Shown here piece after piece: positions 861-7,740 of a DNA stretch of 9,625 nucleotides. The stretch's first letter is position 1. Every line of letters begins with the position of its first letter. The stretch is from IMG/VR virus record IMGVR_UViG_2740892370_000019. The stretch is one strand, 5' to 3'. This DNA is from a virus (lineage: Duplodnaviria; Heunggongvirae; Uroviricota; Caudoviricetes). The notes under the pieces are model-generated. The model ran no database searches and was not told the DNA's origin. It saw only the letters and a list, made by a program, of their open reading frames with translations. A program made the translations under genes and the position numbers.

Positions 861-985
861 GAGATAGAGCAAACAACAAAACCACCACCACCACCCTGAA
901 AAAGCTCATAAATAGCGAAAAACCGCGAGGTCGCCGCCCCGTAGCCTACCGGATCGCCGGAAAGGACCCGCCAGCCAGAACGGGC
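861..985 (-). other. Lambda-type cohesive-end site (cosQ-cosN region conserved, cosB side diverged)
   Basis: The reverse complement of 928..975 reads GCTGGCGGGTCCTTTCCGGCGATCCGGTAGGCTACG followed by GGGCGGCGACCT. This nearly matches the lambda right end GGGTCCTTTCCGGTGATCCGACAGGTTACG joined to the 12-nt cohesive end GGGCGGCGACCT (here at 928..939). The next 25 nt toward the TerS gene (CGCGGTTTTTCGCTATTTATGAG) also match the lambda left end, after which the sequence diverges and includes a (CCA)n/GGTGGTGGTGGTGG tract at 881..896. Confidence 0.8.
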
Positions 986-995
986 CCTAATTTCA

Positions 996-1379
996 TCAAC
1001 CAATCAACTTATAGCGACCATCCCGTGCATTGCGACGTACACGCTCAATCTTGAGGCATAGCGCCGCATCTGGCTTTTTTGGGACAGGTACGCGGCAATA
1101 TTCAGAAGCTCGAGGAATATTGTTTATCCAGTCGATCACTTCACTTAAATACCAGGCCTTACGCCCTTCCGTAACCTGTACGCGTTCGGGGAACTCTCCG
1201 CGAGCCTCAAGGTTTAGCAATGTGCGACGGCTAAGGGTAGTAAGTTCCATCACCTGATTCATATCAACAAGGCGTTCACTTAAACGCATTTTGTCAGCAA
1301 TAGCCTTTAATTCCTCTACTGCTGGATCCGGATACATCATTTCGGCAATTGGCTTAAGGTCATTGTAATGATTCTGCAT
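996..1379 (-). CDS. AlpA-family (phage excisionase/regulator-like) HTH protein with N- and C-terminal extensions, 127 aa
   Basis: The central segment LTTLSRRTLLNLEARGEFPERVQVTEGRKAWYLSEVIDWI fits the AlpA/Xis-type winged-helix signature (hydrophobic HTH, GxFP, R..W..SEV..W). The ATG at 1379 is preceded by AGGGGG at 6 nt and sits 11 nt after the stop of the upstream decoration gene, suggesting coupled expression. The stop abuts the cos site. Confidence 0.65.
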   Translation of the reverse strand: MQNHYNDLKPIAEMMYPDPAVEELKAIADKMRLSERLVDMNQVMELTTLSRRTLLNLEARGEFPERVQVTEGRKAWYLSEVIDWINNIPRASEYCRVPVPKKPDAALCLKIERVRRNARDGRYKLIG

Positions 1380-1390
1380 TGTATCCCCCT

Positions 1391-1732
1391 TTACACACGA
1401 GCCAGCGGCTGAACAGAAATACCTGAGCCAACAAACGCGGCAACCTTTGCCGACAGTTCTTTTACAGACTCAGGCCAGTTCAGAGCATCAACATTTAAAA
1501 CACCTGTCTTATAAACCTGTGCCTGTGTTTTTTTCGCTGTGTCGATTTGTACAGCGGAAACATAAACCGCTTTGCCTGCGCTCGTTCCATCCCATACCAC
1601 TAGCGCACCAGTTGCATCTTCCTGCATCAGTGGCGTAAACGCAGGTATTACCCCTTTATTGGCTGAAAATATCCCCAGCGTAGTAACCAGTGCTTCAGTG
1701 CCAGACATGAGTTCAGTGTAATGAGTAGCCAT
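1391..1732 (-). CDS. Head decoration protein, lambda gpD-like (113 aa)
   Basis: TPLMQEDATGALVVWDGTSAGKAVYVSAV...YKTGVLNVDALNWPES...AAFVGSGISV matches remembered lambda gpD ([29 protein letters not shown]...YKSGTFRYEDVLWPEA...AFAGTAISIV). Size matches gpD (about 110 aa). GGGGGAG Shine-Dalgarno before the ATG at 1732; 9 nt from the capsid gene stop. Confidence 0.85.
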   Translation of the reverse strand: MATHYTELMSGTEALVTTLGIFSANKGVIPAFTPLMQEDATGALVVWDGTSAGKAVYVSAVQIDTAKKTQAQVYKTGVLNVDALNWPESVKELSAKVAAFVGSGISVQPLARV

Positions 1733-1741
1733 TGCTCCCCC

Positions 1742-2788
1742 TTAGCCAATGCGAACGGTAACAAAACGATTGATGCGGGCCGGTATTGGCTGTGGTGCTG
1801 AATGTGTCTGCACATATTCAATAGCCGGATCACCAGGCACAATATAGTTTTTCGGTGCAAGTTCGGCTTTAGTCAGCCCCATCCGGATTAGCTCCGGATC
1901 CTGAATACCGCCATAAGCGACAATCCCCTGAAGAGCCGTATTGCCAAGCACCATCAAATCAGGATCAAGGAAATATTTTTCAGTTCCGTCCTCGTCGGTA
2001 TAACGCCCGCTGTAAACAACAATCGCAACATCGCCCATATACCCTTTAAAACTCACCGAATCACCAAGGTCTTTAAGGGCCGTTTCCAGTTCGGAATTAG
2101 AACCACGACGAGTATCCAGAGCCTCTTTTATCGCCCTGAATGAACGGTATTTCTTCCATACATTACCGCCCATAATGATAATATTAGTGACGCCCTCACT
2201 AAATTCTGCGTAGCTCTCAATATCATCATTTGGATCAAAAGCTTCTTTATCCTTACCTGACCACTCAGCACCGCCAGACTGAGTGATGATATTTTGTGGT
2301 TTAATATTCCAGTCCAGCTCATAACGTTCAATACCATCGCCCTCAATGATATTTTTCCCCGTTGTGATTGCCTGAACGGCAAGCCATTCAATACGTGCAC
2401 GAATAGCTTTAGCCTGATTTACAATCGCCTGTTTAACTTTAATATTACGCGCTCCAAAAGCATTGTATTGCTCAGGTGATACACCAGCAGGGCGCACAGC
2501 TAACTTATTTGGATCAATGCTGCTTTTCGGTTTCATATAGCCAGGGCGAATTGTTTTTGATTCGTATCCCTCATCTCGTGAAACTTTACTGCCCACCATA
2601 GGAGAGCAAAACGCCGCGATCGGGATATTTGGATCGTCGATCGTATCAAGAATAATTTCTCTCGATTCAAACATTACCGAGCGAGTGAAAAACAAACTGG
2701 TAAACAACGCATTTAATTTTTTTTGCACATCTTCAGCATTAGCCACCTGCACAAGCTGTGTAGGCGAATATAAGTCAACCATACTCAT
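1742..2788 (-). CDS. Major capsid protein, lambda gpE-like (about 347 aa)
   Basis: Long collinear similarity to remembered lambda gpE: N-terminus MSMVDLYSPTQLVQVANAE versus MSMYTTAQLLAANEQ; core NIITQSGGAEWSGKDKEAFDPNDDIESYAEFSEGVTNIII...FRAIKEALDTRRGSNSELETALKDLGDSVSFKGYMGDVAIVVYSGRY versus lambda NITQSGGTEWSKRDKSTYDPTDDIEAYALNASGVVNIIV...FKAVKEKLDTRRGSNSELETAVKDLGKAVSYKGMYGDVAIVVYSGQY. The track ORF (to 2869) is over-extended upstream; the true start is the ATG at 2788 (MSM...) or at 2782, the latter having AAAGAGG at ideal spacing. Confidence 0.9.
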   Translation of the reverse strand: MSMVDLYSPTQLVQVANAEDVQKKLNALFTSLFFTRSVMFESREIILDTIDDPNIPIAAFCSPMVGSKVSRDEGYESKTIRPGYMKPKSSIDPNKLAVRPAGVSPEQYNAFGARNIKVKQAIVNQAKAIRARIEWLAVQAITTGKNIIEGDGIERYELDWNIKPQNIITQSGGAEWSGKDKEAFDPNDDIESYAEFSEGVTNIIIMGGNVWKKYRSFRAIKEALDTRRGSNSELETALKDLGDSVSFKGYMGDVAIVVYSGRYTDEDGTEKYFLDPDLMVLGNTALQGIVAYGGIQDPELIRMGLTKAELAPKNYIVPGDPAIEYVQTHSAPQPIPARINRFVTVRIG

Positions 2789-2953
2789 CCTCTTTACATT
2801 CATTACAAATAATTGTGAATATATTCTATTACCGATGTCTGCTATGCGAATACATGCAACCAAGTGCAATGTTGTATAAAATATGCCGTGACAACTTCAG
2901 TGCTGATAATTCGTGTTAATGTATTTACTTCCTTTGGTCGGGATTTATGTAGC

Positions 2954-2994
2954 ATGCCGGAAAATCTATTTTTTTCCGGCATCTTTTTGTTTGC
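2954..2994 (+). terminator. Strong stem-loop with T-tract (intrinsic-terminator-like) between the SSB and capsid genes
   Basis: Perfect 11-bp inverted repeat ATGCCGGAAAA (2954..2964) / TTTTCCGGCAT (2972..2982) with a 7-nt loop, followed on the plus strand by CTTTTTGTTT. It is canonical only for plus-strand transcription; read on the minus strand the stem lacks a downstream U-tract, so any termination of the ssb transcript would be weak or factor-dependent. Confidence 0.45.
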
Positions 2995-2999
2995 AGAAT

Positions 3000-3422
3000 T
3001 TAAAACGGTATATTATCGCCGTACGGATCATCATTCCCCGACTGTTGTTTTGCCCTGTTCAGTGCGTCAGTGGCCTGCCCCTGCTGGCCTTTTTTGCCGC
3101 CCGGTCGCGCTGTTCGCGCACTGATCACGCTGTCTGCGATAACCTGCCAGCCCTGCCGCGTTTCGCCGTTCTGGCCTGTCCACTGGCTTACCTGCATGTT
3201 ACCCGCCACGCTCACCAGTTCGCCTTTGTGGTGTTTTGCCAGTGCGTCGGCCTGTCTGCCAAACGCCAGGACGGATAACCACATCATCGCCGTTCCGTCA
3301 TCTGCCTGGCTGCACGGAAGGGGGACCGCCATACTAGCCATCGCCATTTGTGTACCCTTGCTGGTGGTCTTTAACTGCGGGTCAGCCACCAGCCGTCCGT
3401 AAGCCGCTATCTGTGCTGTCAT
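3000..3422 (-). CDS. ssb: Single-stranded DNA-binding protein (SSB-like, OB-fold, 140 aa)
   Basis: OB-fold region (GRLVADPQLKTT..., WLSVLAFGRQADALAKHHKGELVSVAGNMQVSQWTGQNGETRQGWQVIADSV) aligns with remembered E. coli SSB ([50 protein letters not shown]). Gly/Gln-rich linker and acidic C-terminal tip ...NDDPYGDNIPF resemble the SSB ...DDDIPF tail. The start overlaps the stop of the upstream 80-aa gene (ATGA). Confidence 0.75.
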   Translation of the reverse strand: MTAQIAAYGRLVADPQLKTTSKGTQMAMASMAVPLPCSQADDGTAMMWLSVLAFGRQADALAKHHKGELVSVAGNMQVSQWTGQNGETRQGWQVIADSVISARTARPGGKKGQQGQATDALNRAKQQSGNDDPYGDNIPF

Positions 3423-3661
3423 GCTGTCTGCTCTCCGGTTTTAACGTTGATGGTTGTCACCTGTTCCGCTTCGGCAATCTCCCGTTCTGTCAGCGTGGCA
3501 AAGTTTGCAGCTGCCGTTGTCATGAATGCGCTTATCAGTTCGGGATGTGCTTTTGCATATCCTTCCCCCGTGTTTCGGTCGATGATTTTTATCGCCACTC
3601 TCAGCCAGTGCTCTGTAAGGTCAATAGCGCGGTAGTGTGGTTGTTTGCGGTTTGCCTTCAT
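3419..3661 (-). CDS. Hypothetical protein (80 aa), translationally coupled to the SSB-like gene
   Basis: Intact ORF starting at an ATG (3661) and ending in an ATGA overlap with the ssb start; the upstream Shine-Dalgarno is weak (GAGA). No family recognised from the sequence MKANRKQPHYRAIDLTEHWLRVAIKIIDRNTGEGYAKAHPELISAF... Confidence 0.5.
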   Translation of the reverse strand: MKANRKQPHYRAIDLTEHWLRVAIKIIDRNTGEGYAKAHPELISAFMTTAAANFATLTEREIAEAEQVTTINVKTGEQTA

Positions 3662-3701
3662 AGTTCAGATCTCAATTTTTCGTATATATATACAAAACAG
3701 T

Positions 3702-4024
3702 GCGGGTTATGCGGGTTAGCGGGTTAGCGGGTTATCTTCGCTTGCTAAGTATTTTTTATTCCTTAATATCAATACATTACAAAATTAACTGTTTACTGTT
3801 TAGCCGTGGCGTAACCCGCAAAATGCTCAAAATAACCCGCAAACGGGGTTTTTTCTGCGGGTTACGCGTGGCTGTTTGCTGTCACTTCCTGTTATTCATC
3901 TGCGGGTTATAATCGCACTTTTGCGGGTTATAACTGCCGTTTTGCGGGTTACGTGCGAGTTATTGATTTCCTTTTTATTCATGCAGTTAATGCACTTATA
4001 CACAGAGTAACCCGCATAACCCGC
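3702..4024. repeat. Iteron array and AT-rich region, putative replication origin
   Basis: Twelve copies of the 8-bp motif GCGGGTTA or its complement TAACCCGC: four tandem copies at 3702..3734; complement copies at 3812..3819, 3833..3840, 4008..4015, 4017..4024; direct copies at 3857..3864, 3902..3909, 3923..3930, 3944..3951, several extended to TTTTGCGGGTTA. They flank an AT-rich stretch at about 3735..3800, directly downstream of the primase-like gene. Confidence 0.7.
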
Positions 4025-4047
4025 AACTTTTCACCTCACACAGGGGG

Positions 4048-6990: not shown

Positions 6991-7087
6991 AGCTACCTCG
7001 ATAATCTTTCTATCGTTGGTGGTTAGAAGCCCGGTTAGTGTTAGCGCACTGCCGGGTTTCGTCGTTTCTGCACCTTGCATCAACAAG

Positions 7088-7160
7088 GTGTTAAACACCA
7101 ATTTAAGCCTAGGTGTTAAACACGTCAAGTGTTGAACACTTATTTTTTTTCCTGCATACT
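7088..7160. promoter_or_regulatory. Three palindromic operators with an overlapping candidate promoter for the plus-strand regulator gene
   Basis: GTGTTAAACAC at 7088..7098 and 7113..7123, and GTGTTGAACAC at 7129..7139; each has half-sites GTGTT/AACAC forming an inverted repeat. Centre spacings are about 25 and 16 bp. TTGAAC (7132..7137) lies inside the third operator, then a 17-bp spacer and CATACT (7155..7160), about 30 bp before the ATG at 7190. Confidence 0.55.
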
Positions 7161-7189: not shown

Positions 7190-7369
7190 ATGGCGACAAA
7201 AGCAGTAAACGCAAAATCACAAACAGTTGCGGCAAGGGTTCCGCATGAAGTTATGAACAATGTTGAGGCGGTAAAAATGCCTGGTGAAAGTACAGGGCAG
7301 TTTGTAACAGCAGCATTAAAGCGAGAAGTTGAATACCGCCAGCGTCGCAAGGCCAAAGAGCAGGAGTAA
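7190..7369 (+). CDS. Small ribbon-helix-helix-like DNA-binding protein (59 aa), candidate repressor
   Basis: Not in the ORF track (under 60 aa). MATKAVNAKSQTVAARVPHEVMNNVEAVKMPGESTGQFVTAALKREVEYRQRRKAKEQE: a TVAARVP beta-strand followed by two short helices fits the RHH (CopG/Arc-like) pattern. AAGGGG Shine-Dalgarno about 9 nt upstream; sits directly downstream of the operator triplet. Confidence 0.5.
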   Translation: MATKAVNAKSQTVAARVPHEVMNNVEAVKMPGESTGQFVTAALKREVEYRQRRKAKEQE

Positions 7370-7426
7370 CCATCACCAGCGCCGTGGTGCGGTGAACTGT
7401 GGCGCACAGGGTTACAGGTATCTACG

Positions 7427-7624
7427 ATGACTGACAAATCATTAAAGAAATTATCCTCATCCAGGGAAAAACAACGCAAAAACGCGGTAAGCGAACAAGA
7501 ACAGGAAAGATTCGCACCATGTGCGTTTGTCCTTGAGAAGTTCCTTAAAGAGTACAGGCGCACAAAAATGGGATCGCATACCTGGAAAACATCGCAGCAT
7601 GGCGATGCTAAAGAGCAGGAATAG
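7427..7624 (+). CDS. Hypothetical small basic protein (65 aa)
   Basis: ATG with AGG at about 7 nt; charged, Lys/Arg/Glu-rich composition. Lies between the RHH-like gene and the plus-strand terminator. An overlapping opposite-strand ORF (7457..7645) looks like low-complexity hydrophobic read-through. Confidence 0.3.
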   Translation: MTDKSLKKLSSSREKQRKNAVSEQEQERFAPCAFVLEKFLKEYRRTKMGSHTWKTSQHGDAKEQE

Positions 7625-7712
7625 CCCACCAGCAAGCCAGCACACTGATCACATTGCCCACCAGCCAGCAAATCGCTATGATGTTCGGGCTTATGTTTAG
7701 TGTTTTCCCATT

Positions 7713-7740
7713 GGCGACCGCCCCCGGTCGCCTTTGTTTT
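7713..7740 (+). terminator. Rho-independent terminator
   Basis: Perfect 8-bp GC-rich stem GGCGACCG (7713..7720) / CGGTCGCC (7725..7732) with loop CCCC, followed by TTTGTTTT (7733..7740). Placed where the plus-strand small genes converge on alpA. Confidence 0.65.

What the first reader, a model, noticed from the sequence alone, without database searches (positions are those of the whole stretch)
2954..2994. Strong terminator-like hairpin at the boundary between the replication and head modules, oriented for the opposite strand
An 11-bp perfect stem with a T-tract sits exactly between ssb and the capsid gene, but its U-tract is on the plus strand while all flanking genes are on the minus strand. 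It may insulate the head operon from antisense transcription, act as a weak or conditional terminator separating early from late expression, or mark an undetected plus-strand transcript.
Basis: seen in the sequence. Interest (0 to 1): 0.4.

Follow-up and report, generated by a model that had tools for sequence, protein, structure and literature searches.

The report
Terminator of a hidden satellite small-RNA gene
The hairpin is real and most likely is the stop signal of a short, unannotated RNA gene that points away from the capsid genes of an E. coli phage satellite; a terminator is ordinary, but this RNA gene has not been described.

Summary
Window 2954-2982 is a perfect 11-bp stem with a 7-nt loop, followed on the + strand by CTTTTTGTTT. 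It is the only such inverted repeat in the window, and 4 of 300 shuffles give one.

The window is an EcCICFT073-like phage-inducible chromosomal island (PICI) of E. coli. The hairpin lies 17 nt past the ssb stop codon and 171 nt upstream of the capsid start.

In 14 lineages of the capsid-upstream region (E. coli, four other enterobacterial genera, metagenomes, IMG/VR), one layout recurs in the window's + orientation:
- two or three RTGCAA repeats at 10-bp spacing;
- in most lineages a TGTATAAA(A/G)T box;
- about 95-125 nt of sequence;
- a hairpin plus T-tract.

The hairpin sequences are unrelated between lineages. In all 14 the T-tail scores better in the + orientation. In the non-E. coli lineages the interval is a structured RNA whose helix shows compensatory changes and presents a CCUCC loop.

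I conclude that the hairpin terminates a roughly 100-nt + strand transcript, a candidate small RNA. Neither Rfam nor the papers searched describe it. The promoter, its expression and its target are inferred, not shown. On the minus strand the hairpin has no U-tract, so at most it is a leaky end for ssb transcripts.

The parts
2954..2982 (+). Terminator hairpin: 11-bp perfect stem ATGCCGGAAAA/TTTTCCGGCAT with a 7-nt loop
   Evidence: About 130 E. coli-type copies keep the core GCCGGAA/TTCCGGC. Changes occur only in loop length and at the stem ends.
2983..2992 (+). T-tract CTTTTTGTTT, the U-tail of the terminator. It ends 8 nt before the ssb stop codon.
   Evidence: Tail score -3.76 against -1.83 on the other strand. 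All E. coli-type variants keep at least 5 consecutive T.
2889..2992 (+). Candidate small non-coding RNA of about 100 nt. The 5' end is inferred, not mapped.
   Evidence: Bracketed by the conserved box and the terminator. There is no conserved ORF: a 16-codon ORF in the window is cut to 7 codons in E. coli group B. The first ~45 nt align with the structured RNA of relatives. No Rfam match.
2927..2937 (+). CU-rich motif ACTTCCTTTGG, counterpart of the (U)UCCUCC(A) loop of relatives
   Evidence: In the window type it is not held in a supported helix.
2873..2882 (+). Conserved box TGTATAAAAT, the putative -10 region of the + strand promoter
   Evidence: Nearly invariant across genera while the flanks diverge. 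It is below consensus as a sigma-70 promoter and was not listed by the scan.
2844..2869 (+). Three direct repeats ATGCGA / ATGCAA / GTGCAA at 10-bp spacing: putative regulator sites shared by two divergent promoters
   Evidence: 3 matches, 0.56 expected. Two or three RTGCAA repeats are present in all lineages fetched through the capsid gene. They lie about 25 nt upstream of the capsid-side -10 and 5 nt upstream of the + strand box.
2823..2850 (-). Promoter-like site of the capsid operon (TTCGCA, 16 nt, TAGAAT)
   Evidence: The -10 region (GATAATGCTATCAC in relatives) is conserved. In CFT073 the capsid-operon genes c1498-c1501 are reported as a co-regulated group (PMC12890032).
3000..3422 (-). 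ssb, last gene of the replication module, convergent with the candidate RNA
   Evidence: RefSeq annotation of an identical locus. Similarity to other PICIs ends at its stop codon.
1742..2782 (-). Major capsid protein gene, first gene of the late module, divergent from the candidate RNA

Best explanation
The hairpin with its T-tract is a Rho-independent terminator that works on the + strand. It ends a short transcript of about 100 nt (roughly 2889-2992). That transcript starts at a promoter whose -10 region is the conserved box TGTATAAAAT (2873-2882). It runs away from the capsid operon and towards ssb. The unit behaves as a small non-coding RNA gene belonging to the capsid module of EcCICFT073-like PICIs. 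What is shown: the hairpin, its orientation, the recurrence of the box-interval-terminator layout across lineages, and the structured RNA in relatives. What is inferred: that the box is an active promoter, that the RNA accumulates in E. coli, and what it does. Two possible functions remain open. It could be a trans-acting regulator that uses the CU-rich, anti-Shine-Dalgarno-like motif. Or it could be a cis-antisense RNA, like lambda OOP, that pairs with minus-strand transcripts reading through from ssb into the late genes. The RTGCAA repeats lie at about -38 to -63 of the capsid -10 and at -18 to -43 of the + strand -10. One bound protein could therefore switch on the capsid operon while occluding the RNA promoter. 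This is speculation. As a side effect the same stem-loop forms at the 3' end of ssb transcripts. Without a U-tract it should terminate poorly there.
For: (1) The hairpin is real and not a chance feature. (2) Orientation: tail score -3.76 on + against -1.83 on -. (3) The whole intergenic region occurs in 366 of 5426 complete E. coli genomes and always intact. PICIs with the same ssb but another late module lose similarity exactly at the ssb stop codon, so the hairpin goes with the capsid side. (4) Capsid relatives from Kluyvera, Superficieibacter, Cedecea and Kosakonia, from metagenomes and from IMG/VR were examined. All 14 lineages have RTGCAA repeats, then about 95-125 nt, then a hairpin plus T-tract in the window's + orientation. 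The TGTATAAA(A/G)T box itself is kept in most of them (9 of the 12 lineages fetched through the capsid gene; L045, L012 and L053 carry variants). (5) The hairpin sequences are unrelated between lineages: ATGCCGGAAAA, GCGGG...CCCGC, AAGCAGC..., GGTCGGAA.... Yet the + tail beats the - tail in 14 of 14. That fits a structural RNA signal and not a sequence-specific DNA site. (6) In the non-E. coli lineages the interval is a structured RNA. Covariance model R1 finds 27 copies with E from 4e-28 to 8e-5. Eight of 15 pairs show changes on both sides. 96-99% of cells pair, against 36-59% when partners are slid, and 0 of 500 shuffles reach the observed values. Wobble pairs inside the helices are all G-U on the modelled strand. 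(7) EcCICFT073-type loci have a consensus-grade + promoter at the matching place (TTGACT, 17 nt, AATTAT, with TG) back to back with a minus-strand promoter. About 95 nt downstream sits a + terminator, and next to it a separate minus-strand terminator for ssb. (8) No + strand gene follows the terminator in the window or in relatives, and the transcript has no conserved ORF. (9) All neighbouring genes to the left are on the minus strand. A + terminator here therefore only makes sense if there is a local + promoter.
Against: No expression data were available. The window's + promoter is weak by consensus: about 7 of 12 hexamer matches, and the scan lists it neither in the window nor in L010. Model R1 does not detect the window-type sequence at E <= 10. 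Only the first ~45 nt align with relatives. The CCUCC-presenting helix is missing in the window type, and RNAalifold finds no supported internal structure there. Within the E. coli type the hairpin shows no compensatory changes, only invariance or losses at the stem ends. Its support is therefore positional conservation, not covariation. The IMG/VR loci were fetched with a pattern containing the repeats and the box, so they are not independent evidence for those elements. The alignments used for pair counts were fitted to the model. No convincing target was found. The published description of Gram-negative PICIs says they are transcribed unidirectionally (PMC6092414).
Confidence: 0.6

Rival explanations
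1. The hairpin works mainly on the minus strand. It would be the 3'-end stem-loop of the early (replication) operon after ssb. There it would act as a leaky or conditional terminator, or as a barrier to 3' exonucleases, setting how much early transcription reads into the capsid operon. This does not exclude the + strand role.
For: It starts 17 nt after the ssb stop codon and folds well on the minus strand (-16.2 kcal/mol, z = -4.7). Related PICIs place a canonical minus-strand terminator right after ssb, so the early operon commonly ends here. In several relatives the RNA terminator is nearly symmetric, with an A-tract upstream and a T-tract downstream (L045, L049, L013). It then sits just past the stop of the upstream gene. 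AlpA-family proteins can act as processive antiterminators in Pseudomonas (PMC7969949 and PMC9371919), which would make such a boundary conditional.
Against: The minus-strand tail GCTACATAAATCC has no U-tract and scores -1.83. The group B variants improve the + tail to TTTTTTTATT and leave the minus tail poor at -2.13. Sequence similarity breaks at the ssb stop codon, so the hairpin did not travel with ssb. All 14 lineages favour the + orientation.
Confidence: 0.2
2. The terminator is a relic. It arrived with the capsid module from an ancestor that had an active small-RNA gene. In the E. coli lineage the promoter or the RNA is no longer functional, and the hairpin persists only because the lineage is young.
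For: The window type has lost the CCUCC helix and is not detected by model R1. Its + promoter is below consensus. E. coli copies are 85-100% identical, so conservation among them says little.
Against: The window type and group B differ by about 14% across the region, yet both keep the box, the core stem and a tract of at least 5 T. Group B even lengthens the T-tract. The segment just upstream of the hairpin (CCTTTGGTCGGGATTTATGTAGC) is the least variable part of the intergenic region. The terminator was replaced by a different, functional-looking one rather than decaying.
Confidence: 0.12
3. The inverted repeat is a DNA-level site: an operator for a dimeric regulator, or part of cos, of the replication origin or of a recombination site.
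For: A perfect 11-bp palindrome with a 7-bp spacer could bind a dimer. It lies in a regulatory intergenic region.
Against: cosN (GGGCGGCGACCT) is at 928-939. The origin iterons (TGCGGGTTA, at least 13 copies) are at 3701-4026. The palindrome sequence is not conserved between lineages, while position, stem-loop character and T-tract orientation are. Loop length varies by T-run slippage, which would change half-site spacing. It lies about 105 bp from the capsid promoter -35.
Confidence: 0.04

Closest known systems
Rho-independent terminators of enterobacterial small-RNA genes and of convergent gene pairs
   Same: A stem-loop with G-C pairs (-15.4 kcal/mol) directly followed by a U-rich tail. It sits at the end of a roughly 100-nt unit and faces the end of a convergent mRNA.
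   Different: The stem is A/U-rich at the top, with only 5 G-C pairs in 11. It is not bidirectional, because there is no A-tract upstream. No 3' end has been mapped.
Lambda OOP RNA (from my own knowledge: a 77-nt antisense RNA transcribed against the pR operon, overlapping the 3' end of cII and triggering RNase III cleavage)
   Same: A short RNA with its own promoter and intrinsic terminator, pointing against an otherwise one-directional operon. It lies at a boundary between functional modules and converges on the end of an upstream gene.
   Different: The candidate RNA stops 8 nt before the ssb stop codon. It would overlap only the 3' untranslated part or read-through RNA, not coding sequence. 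There is no sequence similarity, and the mechanism is untested.
SviR, the small RNA of the Vibrio cholerae satellite PLE (bioRxiv 10.1101/2022.04.08.487710)
   Same: A small RNA encoded by a phage satellite. That paper presents SviR as the first small RNA shown to act in a satellite-phage conflict.
   Different: A different satellite family and host, with no sequence relation tested here. SviR has experimental targets in both genomes. This candidate has none.
P4 CI RNA and P1/P7 C4 antisense RNA (CI and seqA homologues are reported in some PICI Bro genes, PMC10111431)
   Same: Small regulatory RNAs of satellites and phages of enterobacteria that act by base pairing through exposed loops.
   Different: Those RNAs are processed from a co-directional leader in the immunity region. 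This unit is a separate divergent gene beside the capsid operon. Rfam, which holds the C4 family, gives no match.
EcCICFT073, the reference Gram-negative PICI (PMC6092414, PMC6739421)
   Same: The same island type: int, alpA, primase with origin iterons, ssb, capsid (c1499-like), decoration (c1500-like), a wHTH gene, cos and terS.
   Different: EcCICFT073-type loci have an extra small gene before the capsid gene and a different intergenic region. That region carries two convergent terminators instead of one. The papers read here do not describe any + strand RNA in this region.

Membership tests
Intrinsic (Rho-independent) terminator, + strand | Stable stem-loop containing G-C pairs | tested here: met
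   11 perfect pairs, 5 of them G-C, 7-nt loop, -15.4 kcal/mol.
Intrinsic (Rho-independent) terminator, + strand | U-rich tract directly 3' of the stem | tested here: met
   CTTTTTGTTT, tail score -3.76. Variants have TTTTTTTATT.
Intrinsic (Rho-independent) terminator, + strand | Lies at the end of a transcription unit on that strand | tested here: inconclusive
   The conserved box 70 nt upstream and the same layout in 14 lineages argue for it. The promoter is below consensus.
Intrinsic (Rho-independent) terminator, + strand | RNA 3' ends map to the U-tract | not testable with these tools
   Needs Term-seq, 3' RACE or a Northern blot.
Bidirectional terminator | A-tract 5' of the stem, giving a U-tract on the other strand | tested here: not met
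   The upstream sequence is GGGATTTATGTAGC. The minus-strand tail score is -1.83. Some relatives (L045, L049) do meet this feature.
Base-pairing small RNA (trans-acting, Hfq-type) | Stand-alone non-coding unit with its own promoter and a terminator ending in a U-tail | tested here: inconclusive
   The terminator and the absence of a conserved ORF are met. Promoter activity is untested.
Base-pairing small RNA (trans-acting, Hfq-type) | Conserved structure presenting a conserved single-stranded seed | tested here: inconclusive
   Met in relatives: a helix with 6 of 8 pairs changed on both sides presents a CCUCC loop. Not met in the window type, where only a CU-rich motif remains and no helix is supported.
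Base-pairing small RNA (trans-acting, Hfq-type) | Conserved complementarity to a target mRNA | tested here: inconclusive
   No translation-start region stands out from background. There is a weak lead to the Shine-Dalgarno sequences of the decoration and 127-aa genes in the E. coli and L013 types only. No complementarity to coliphages was found.
Cis-antisense RNA of the lambda OOP kind | Overlaps a convergent mRNA | tested here: inconclusive
   It does not overlap the ssb coding sequence, since the T-tract ends at 2992 and the stop codon is at 3000-3002. It would be fully complementary to any minus-strand read-through RNA, whose existence is untested.
Any Rfam 15 family | Covariance-model match | tested here: not met
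   No match within 2850-3000 at E <= 5 in the window. No match at the RNA locus in 11 relatives at E <= 1.
cos site of a cos-packaged PICI | cosN cohesive-end sequence | tested here: not met
   The only GGGCGGCGACCT is at 928-939 on the minus strand.
PICI replication origin | Iterons 3' of the primase gene | tested here: not met
   The TGCGGGTTA iterons lie at 3701-4026, not at the hairpin.
Operator palindrome | Half-site sequence and spacing conserved among relatives | tested here: not met
   Stem sequences are unrelated between lineages and loop length varies.

The most novel reading that the evidence does not exclude
Enterobacterial PICIs that carry a lambda-type capsid gene also carry a conserved, so far undescribed small-RNA gene, transcribed divergently from the capsid operon. 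Most lineages present an anti-Shine-Dalgarno CCUCC loop; the E. coli type is a remodelled version ending at this hairpin. Together with the RTGCAA repeats it would form a switch. The RNA is made while the island is quiescent or early. It then either represses translation of island or helper late genes, or destroys early-to-late read-through transcripts. When an activator occupies the repeats, the RNA is shut off and the capsid operon is turned on.
Probability: 0.3. Interest if true: 0.65.

Novelty: new member of a known kind. Interest (0 to 1): 0.42.

Why it matters
Gram-negative PICIs are described as transcribed in one direction, and how their late (capsid and packaging) genes are controlled is not settled in the papers read here. 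A conserved RNA gene placed back to back with the capsid promoter and sharing its repeat elements gives a concrete, testable regulatory candidate. The island family it belongs to is present in about 7% of complete E. coli genomes. It would also be the first small RNA of the PICI family proper; the only satellite small RNA with a shown role that I found is SviR of Vibrio PLE. If the RNA turns out not to be made, the finding reduces to an ordinary orphan terminator.

Tried and rejected
- Rfam scans of the window and of 11 relatives gave nothing at the locus.
- Whole-RNA duplex searches against island sequences gave only long spurious duplexes.
- The RNA body scored against start regions of island genes gave a best of -26.1 kcal/mol for terS. 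That is only the 5th percentile of background.
- Seed-only scoring put the decoration and 127-aa genes on top in the E. coli and L013 types, but not in the CCUCC-loop lineages. I kept this as a lead, not a claim.
- blastn of the RNA body against 50,697 phage records found no coliphage complementarity.
- Capsid start regions share only a 4-bp GAGG/CCUC match with the loop (read from the sequences).
- A small protein was rejected. The 16-codon ORF in the window is cut to 7 codons in group B, and indels are not in multiples of three.
- cos and origin were rejected.
- RNAalifold on ten E. coli-type variants found no pair with compensatory change.
- I first read L163 as a recombinant showing that the hairpin travels with the capsid module. 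Its new flank is in fact an IS200-like insertion in the T-tract, so I dropped that argument.
- Counting G-U against A-C cells to diagnose the strand gave 23 against 14. All A-C cells are at helix ends, so this is only modest support.
- The complementarity between 2878-2888 and 2977-2987 is absent in group B and is probably chance.

Full report
**What the window is.** The 751 bp around the finding are 100% identical to chromosomal loci of many E. coli strains. In strain 2015C-3163 the element lies between clpS and cspD. It encodes, all on the minus strand:
- integrase
- an AlpA-type HTH protein
- an Icd-like protein
- a DUF927 primase
- ssb (window 3000-3422)
- major capsid protein (1742-2782)
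- head decoration protein (1391-1732)
- a 127-aa wHTH protein (996-1379)
- terS

This is the gene set of EcCICFT073-like Gram-negative phage-inducible chromosomal islands (PMC6092414; PMC6739421). Two further landmarks fit that identity:
- cosN (GGGCGGCGACCT) lies at 928-939.
- At least 13 TGCGGGTTA iterons lie at 3701-4026, just 3' of the primase gene.

**The observation.** Window 2954-2982 is ATGCCGGAAAA-TCTATTT-TTTTCCGGCAT, followed by CTTTTTGTTT.
- It is the only perfect inverted repeat of at least 9 bp with a short loop in the window. Four of 300 dinucleotide shuffles produce an 11-bp one.
- The stem alone folds at -15.4 kcal/mol.
- The T-tract is on the + strand only. The tail score is -3.76 there, against -1.83 for the minus-strand tail GCTACATAAATCC.
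- The hairpin begins 17 nt after the ssb stop codon and lies 171 nt upstream of the capsid ATG.

**Which module owns the hairpin.**
- The complete ssb-capsid intergenic region occurs in 366 of 5426 complete E. coli genomes and always as a whole.
- About a thousand further genomes share ssb but not the spacer. Their similarity to the window stops at query position 301 or 297, which is the ssb stop codon.
- In those EcCICFT073-type islands ssb is followed by a canonical minus-strand terminator (GCCGGAGCAATCCGGC then TTTTTT).
- Further towards the capsid genes they have a second terminator that points the other way, like the window's.

So the early operon can have its own terminator. The + oriented one belongs to the capsid side.

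**Comparison across lineages.** Relatives of the capsid protein were fetched from three sources:
- Kluyvera, Superficieibacter, Cedecea and Kosakonia genomes
- 56 metagenome contigs
- IMG/VR, through the pattern TGCAA-N4-RTGCAA-N3-TGTATAAA

Read in the window's + orientation, every genuine lineage shows the same order of elements upstream of the capsid start:
1. two or three RTGCAA direct repeats at 10-bp spacing (window 2844-2869);
2. the box TGTATAAA(A/G)T (window 2873-2882), kept in 9 of the 12 lineages fetched through the capsid gene;
3. 95-125 nt of sequence that differs between lineages;
4. a hairpin plus T-tract.

The hairpins are unrelated in sequence. Even so, the + tail scores better than the minus tail in all 14 lineages tabulated. 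A site kept for its DNA sequence would not behave this way. A terminator would.

No + strand gene follows the terminator in the window or in relatives, and the interval holds no conserved ORF. All genes to the left of the hairpin are on the minus strand. A + terminator here is therefore pointless unless transcription starts locally.

**The interval is a structured RNA in relatives.** A covariance model built from five sequences recovers 27 copies in other loci, with E from 4e-28 to 8e-5. Two helices are supported:
- an 8-bp helix presenting a (U)UCCUCC(A) loop;
- the terminator stem.

| Measure | Result |
|---|---|
| Pairs with changes on both sides | 8 of 15 |
| Cells forming a standard pair | 96-99% |
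| Cells paired when partners are slid 1-3 columns | 36-59% |
| Shuffles reaching the observed values | 0 of 500 |

The alignments were fitted to the model, which favours the structure. However, the stems really differ between lineages (UGUUAUUU/AAAUAACA, UUACUGUU/AAUGGUAA, CUGUUACU/GGUAACAG). Wobble pairs inside the helices are all G-U on the modelled strand. Rfam has no family for this RNA. Searches of the paper library found no small RNA described for E. coli PICIs. The only satellite small RNA with a shown role is SviR of Vibrio PLE.

**How the window type relates to that RNA.**
- Shared: the repeats, the box, a GGUGA motif and a GUGUUAAUGU motif at the same distance from the box.
- Different: the model does not detect the window type, the CCUCC helix is gone, and only a CU-rich stretch ACUUCCUUUGG (2927-2937) remains.
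- The terminator is a different one.
- RNAalifold on ten E. coli variants finds no pair with compensatory change.
- Among about 130 E. coli-type copies the stem core and a run of at least 5 T are constant. Loop length drifts by T-run slippage.

For the window itself, the evidence that the hairpin is a terminator is thus its anatomy and the positional conservation, not covariation.

**The promoter.**
- In EcCICFT073-type loci the matching position has a consensus-grade + promoter (TTGACT, 17 nt, AATTAT, preceded by TG). It stands back to back with a minus-strand promoter.
- In the window the best reading is ATGCAA, 17 nt, TAAAAT. That is about 7 of 12 matches and below the scan threshold.
- The capsid-side promoter-like site is TTCGCA, 16 nt, TAGAAT at 2850-2823.
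- An RNA-seq study of CFT073 reports c1498-c1501, the capsid-operon genes, as a co-regulated group (PMC12890032). This fits an independent late promoter.
- The repeats lie at about -38 to -63 of the capsid -10 and about -18 to -43 of the + strand -10.

One protein could therefore activate one promoter and occlude the other. This is inference only.

**Function of the RNA.** I could not establish it.
- Duplex predictions against island start regions do not rise above background.
- There is no complementarity to known coliphages.
- The CU-rich motif pairs best with the AAGGGGGA Shine-Dalgarno sequences of the decoration and 127-aa genes in the E. coli types.
- The L013 loop UUACUCCU is exactly complementary to its decoration Shine-Dalgarno AGGAGUAA.
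- The CCUCC-loop lineages do not show this.

A cis-antisense role is equally possible. Any minus-strand transcript that reads through the U-less hairpin from ssb into the late genes would contain a perfect 100-nt complement of the RNA. That would resemble lambda OOP (my own knowledge).

**The minus strand.** The stem-loop also forms on ssb transcripts (-16.2 kcal/mol) but lacks a U-tract. It may stabilise the 3' end or terminate weakly. AlpA-family proteins are processive antiterminators in Pseudomonas (PMC7969949 and PMC9371919). Early-to-late read-through could thus be regulated in PICIs, but this is untested.

**Verdict.** The hairpin is a genuine, conserved, + strand intrinsic terminator. 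The ordinary part is the terminator. The interesting part is what it terminates: a candidate small-RNA gene that published PICI maps do not show. I put 0.6 on this explanation. The rivals are:

| Rival explanation | Confidence |
|---|---|
| Mainly a minus-strand role | 0.2 |
| Relic without an active promoter | 0.12 |
| DNA-level site | 0.04 |

Noticed in passing
window 3701-4026: At least 13 copies of the iteron TGCGGGTTA in both orientations, just 3' of the primase gene. This is very likely the island's replication origin.
   Followed up: partly
window 928-939 (minus) and 996-1379 (minus): A lambda-type cosN (GGGCGGCGACCT) sits between terS and a 127-aa wHTH gene. That protein matches PDB 8c3t, 'AlpA family phage regulatory protein' (E 1.6e-10). 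It may be an Rpp-like packaging redirector or a second AlpA-type regulator.
   Followed up: partly
window 6991-7063 (+): A sub-threshold Rfam match to the SymR antitoxin RNA (34 bits, E 0.0018, gathering score 61). It is antisense to the start of the Icd-like gene, so it may be a second + strand antisense RNA in the island.
   Followed up: no
window 7087-7135 and 7190-7732: Three GTGTTAAACAC-like repeats lie between the Icd-like operon and two + strand genes (a YlcI/YnfO-family protein and a hypothetical protein). Those genes end at a strong + terminator at 7713-7732. The island is therefore not strictly unidirectional.
   Followed up: no
L002 1472-6000 and L003 1274-6000: The same PICI type is embedded in the major capsid gene of a lambdoid prophage, next to FI, head-tail joining and tail genes. 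It carries cargo in place of terS: a TIR-domain protein in L002 and DUF3892 in L003. This matches the published helper-embedded PICIs (PMC10111431).
   Followed up: partly
L163 about 3600-3950: An IS200-like element, with its own left-end hairpin and a TnpA start (MGNEKSLAHTRWNCKYHIVFAPKY), is inserted right in the T-tract of the E. coli-type terminator. That copy also has a C-to-A change in the stem.
   Followed up: partly
window 2878-2888 and 2977-2987: The inferred 5' end of the candidate RNA (AAAATATGCCG) is 91% complementary to the 3' arm of the terminator plus the start of the T-tract. This is absent in E. coli group B, so it is probably chance.
   Followed up: partly
window 1733-1745 and 1380-1392 (minus-strand start regions): The decoration gene and the 127-aa gene both use an unusually G-rich Shine-Dalgarno, AAGGGGGA. 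It is the best predicted partner of the CU-rich motif of the candidate RNA, at -14 to -17 kcal/mol.
   Followed up: partly
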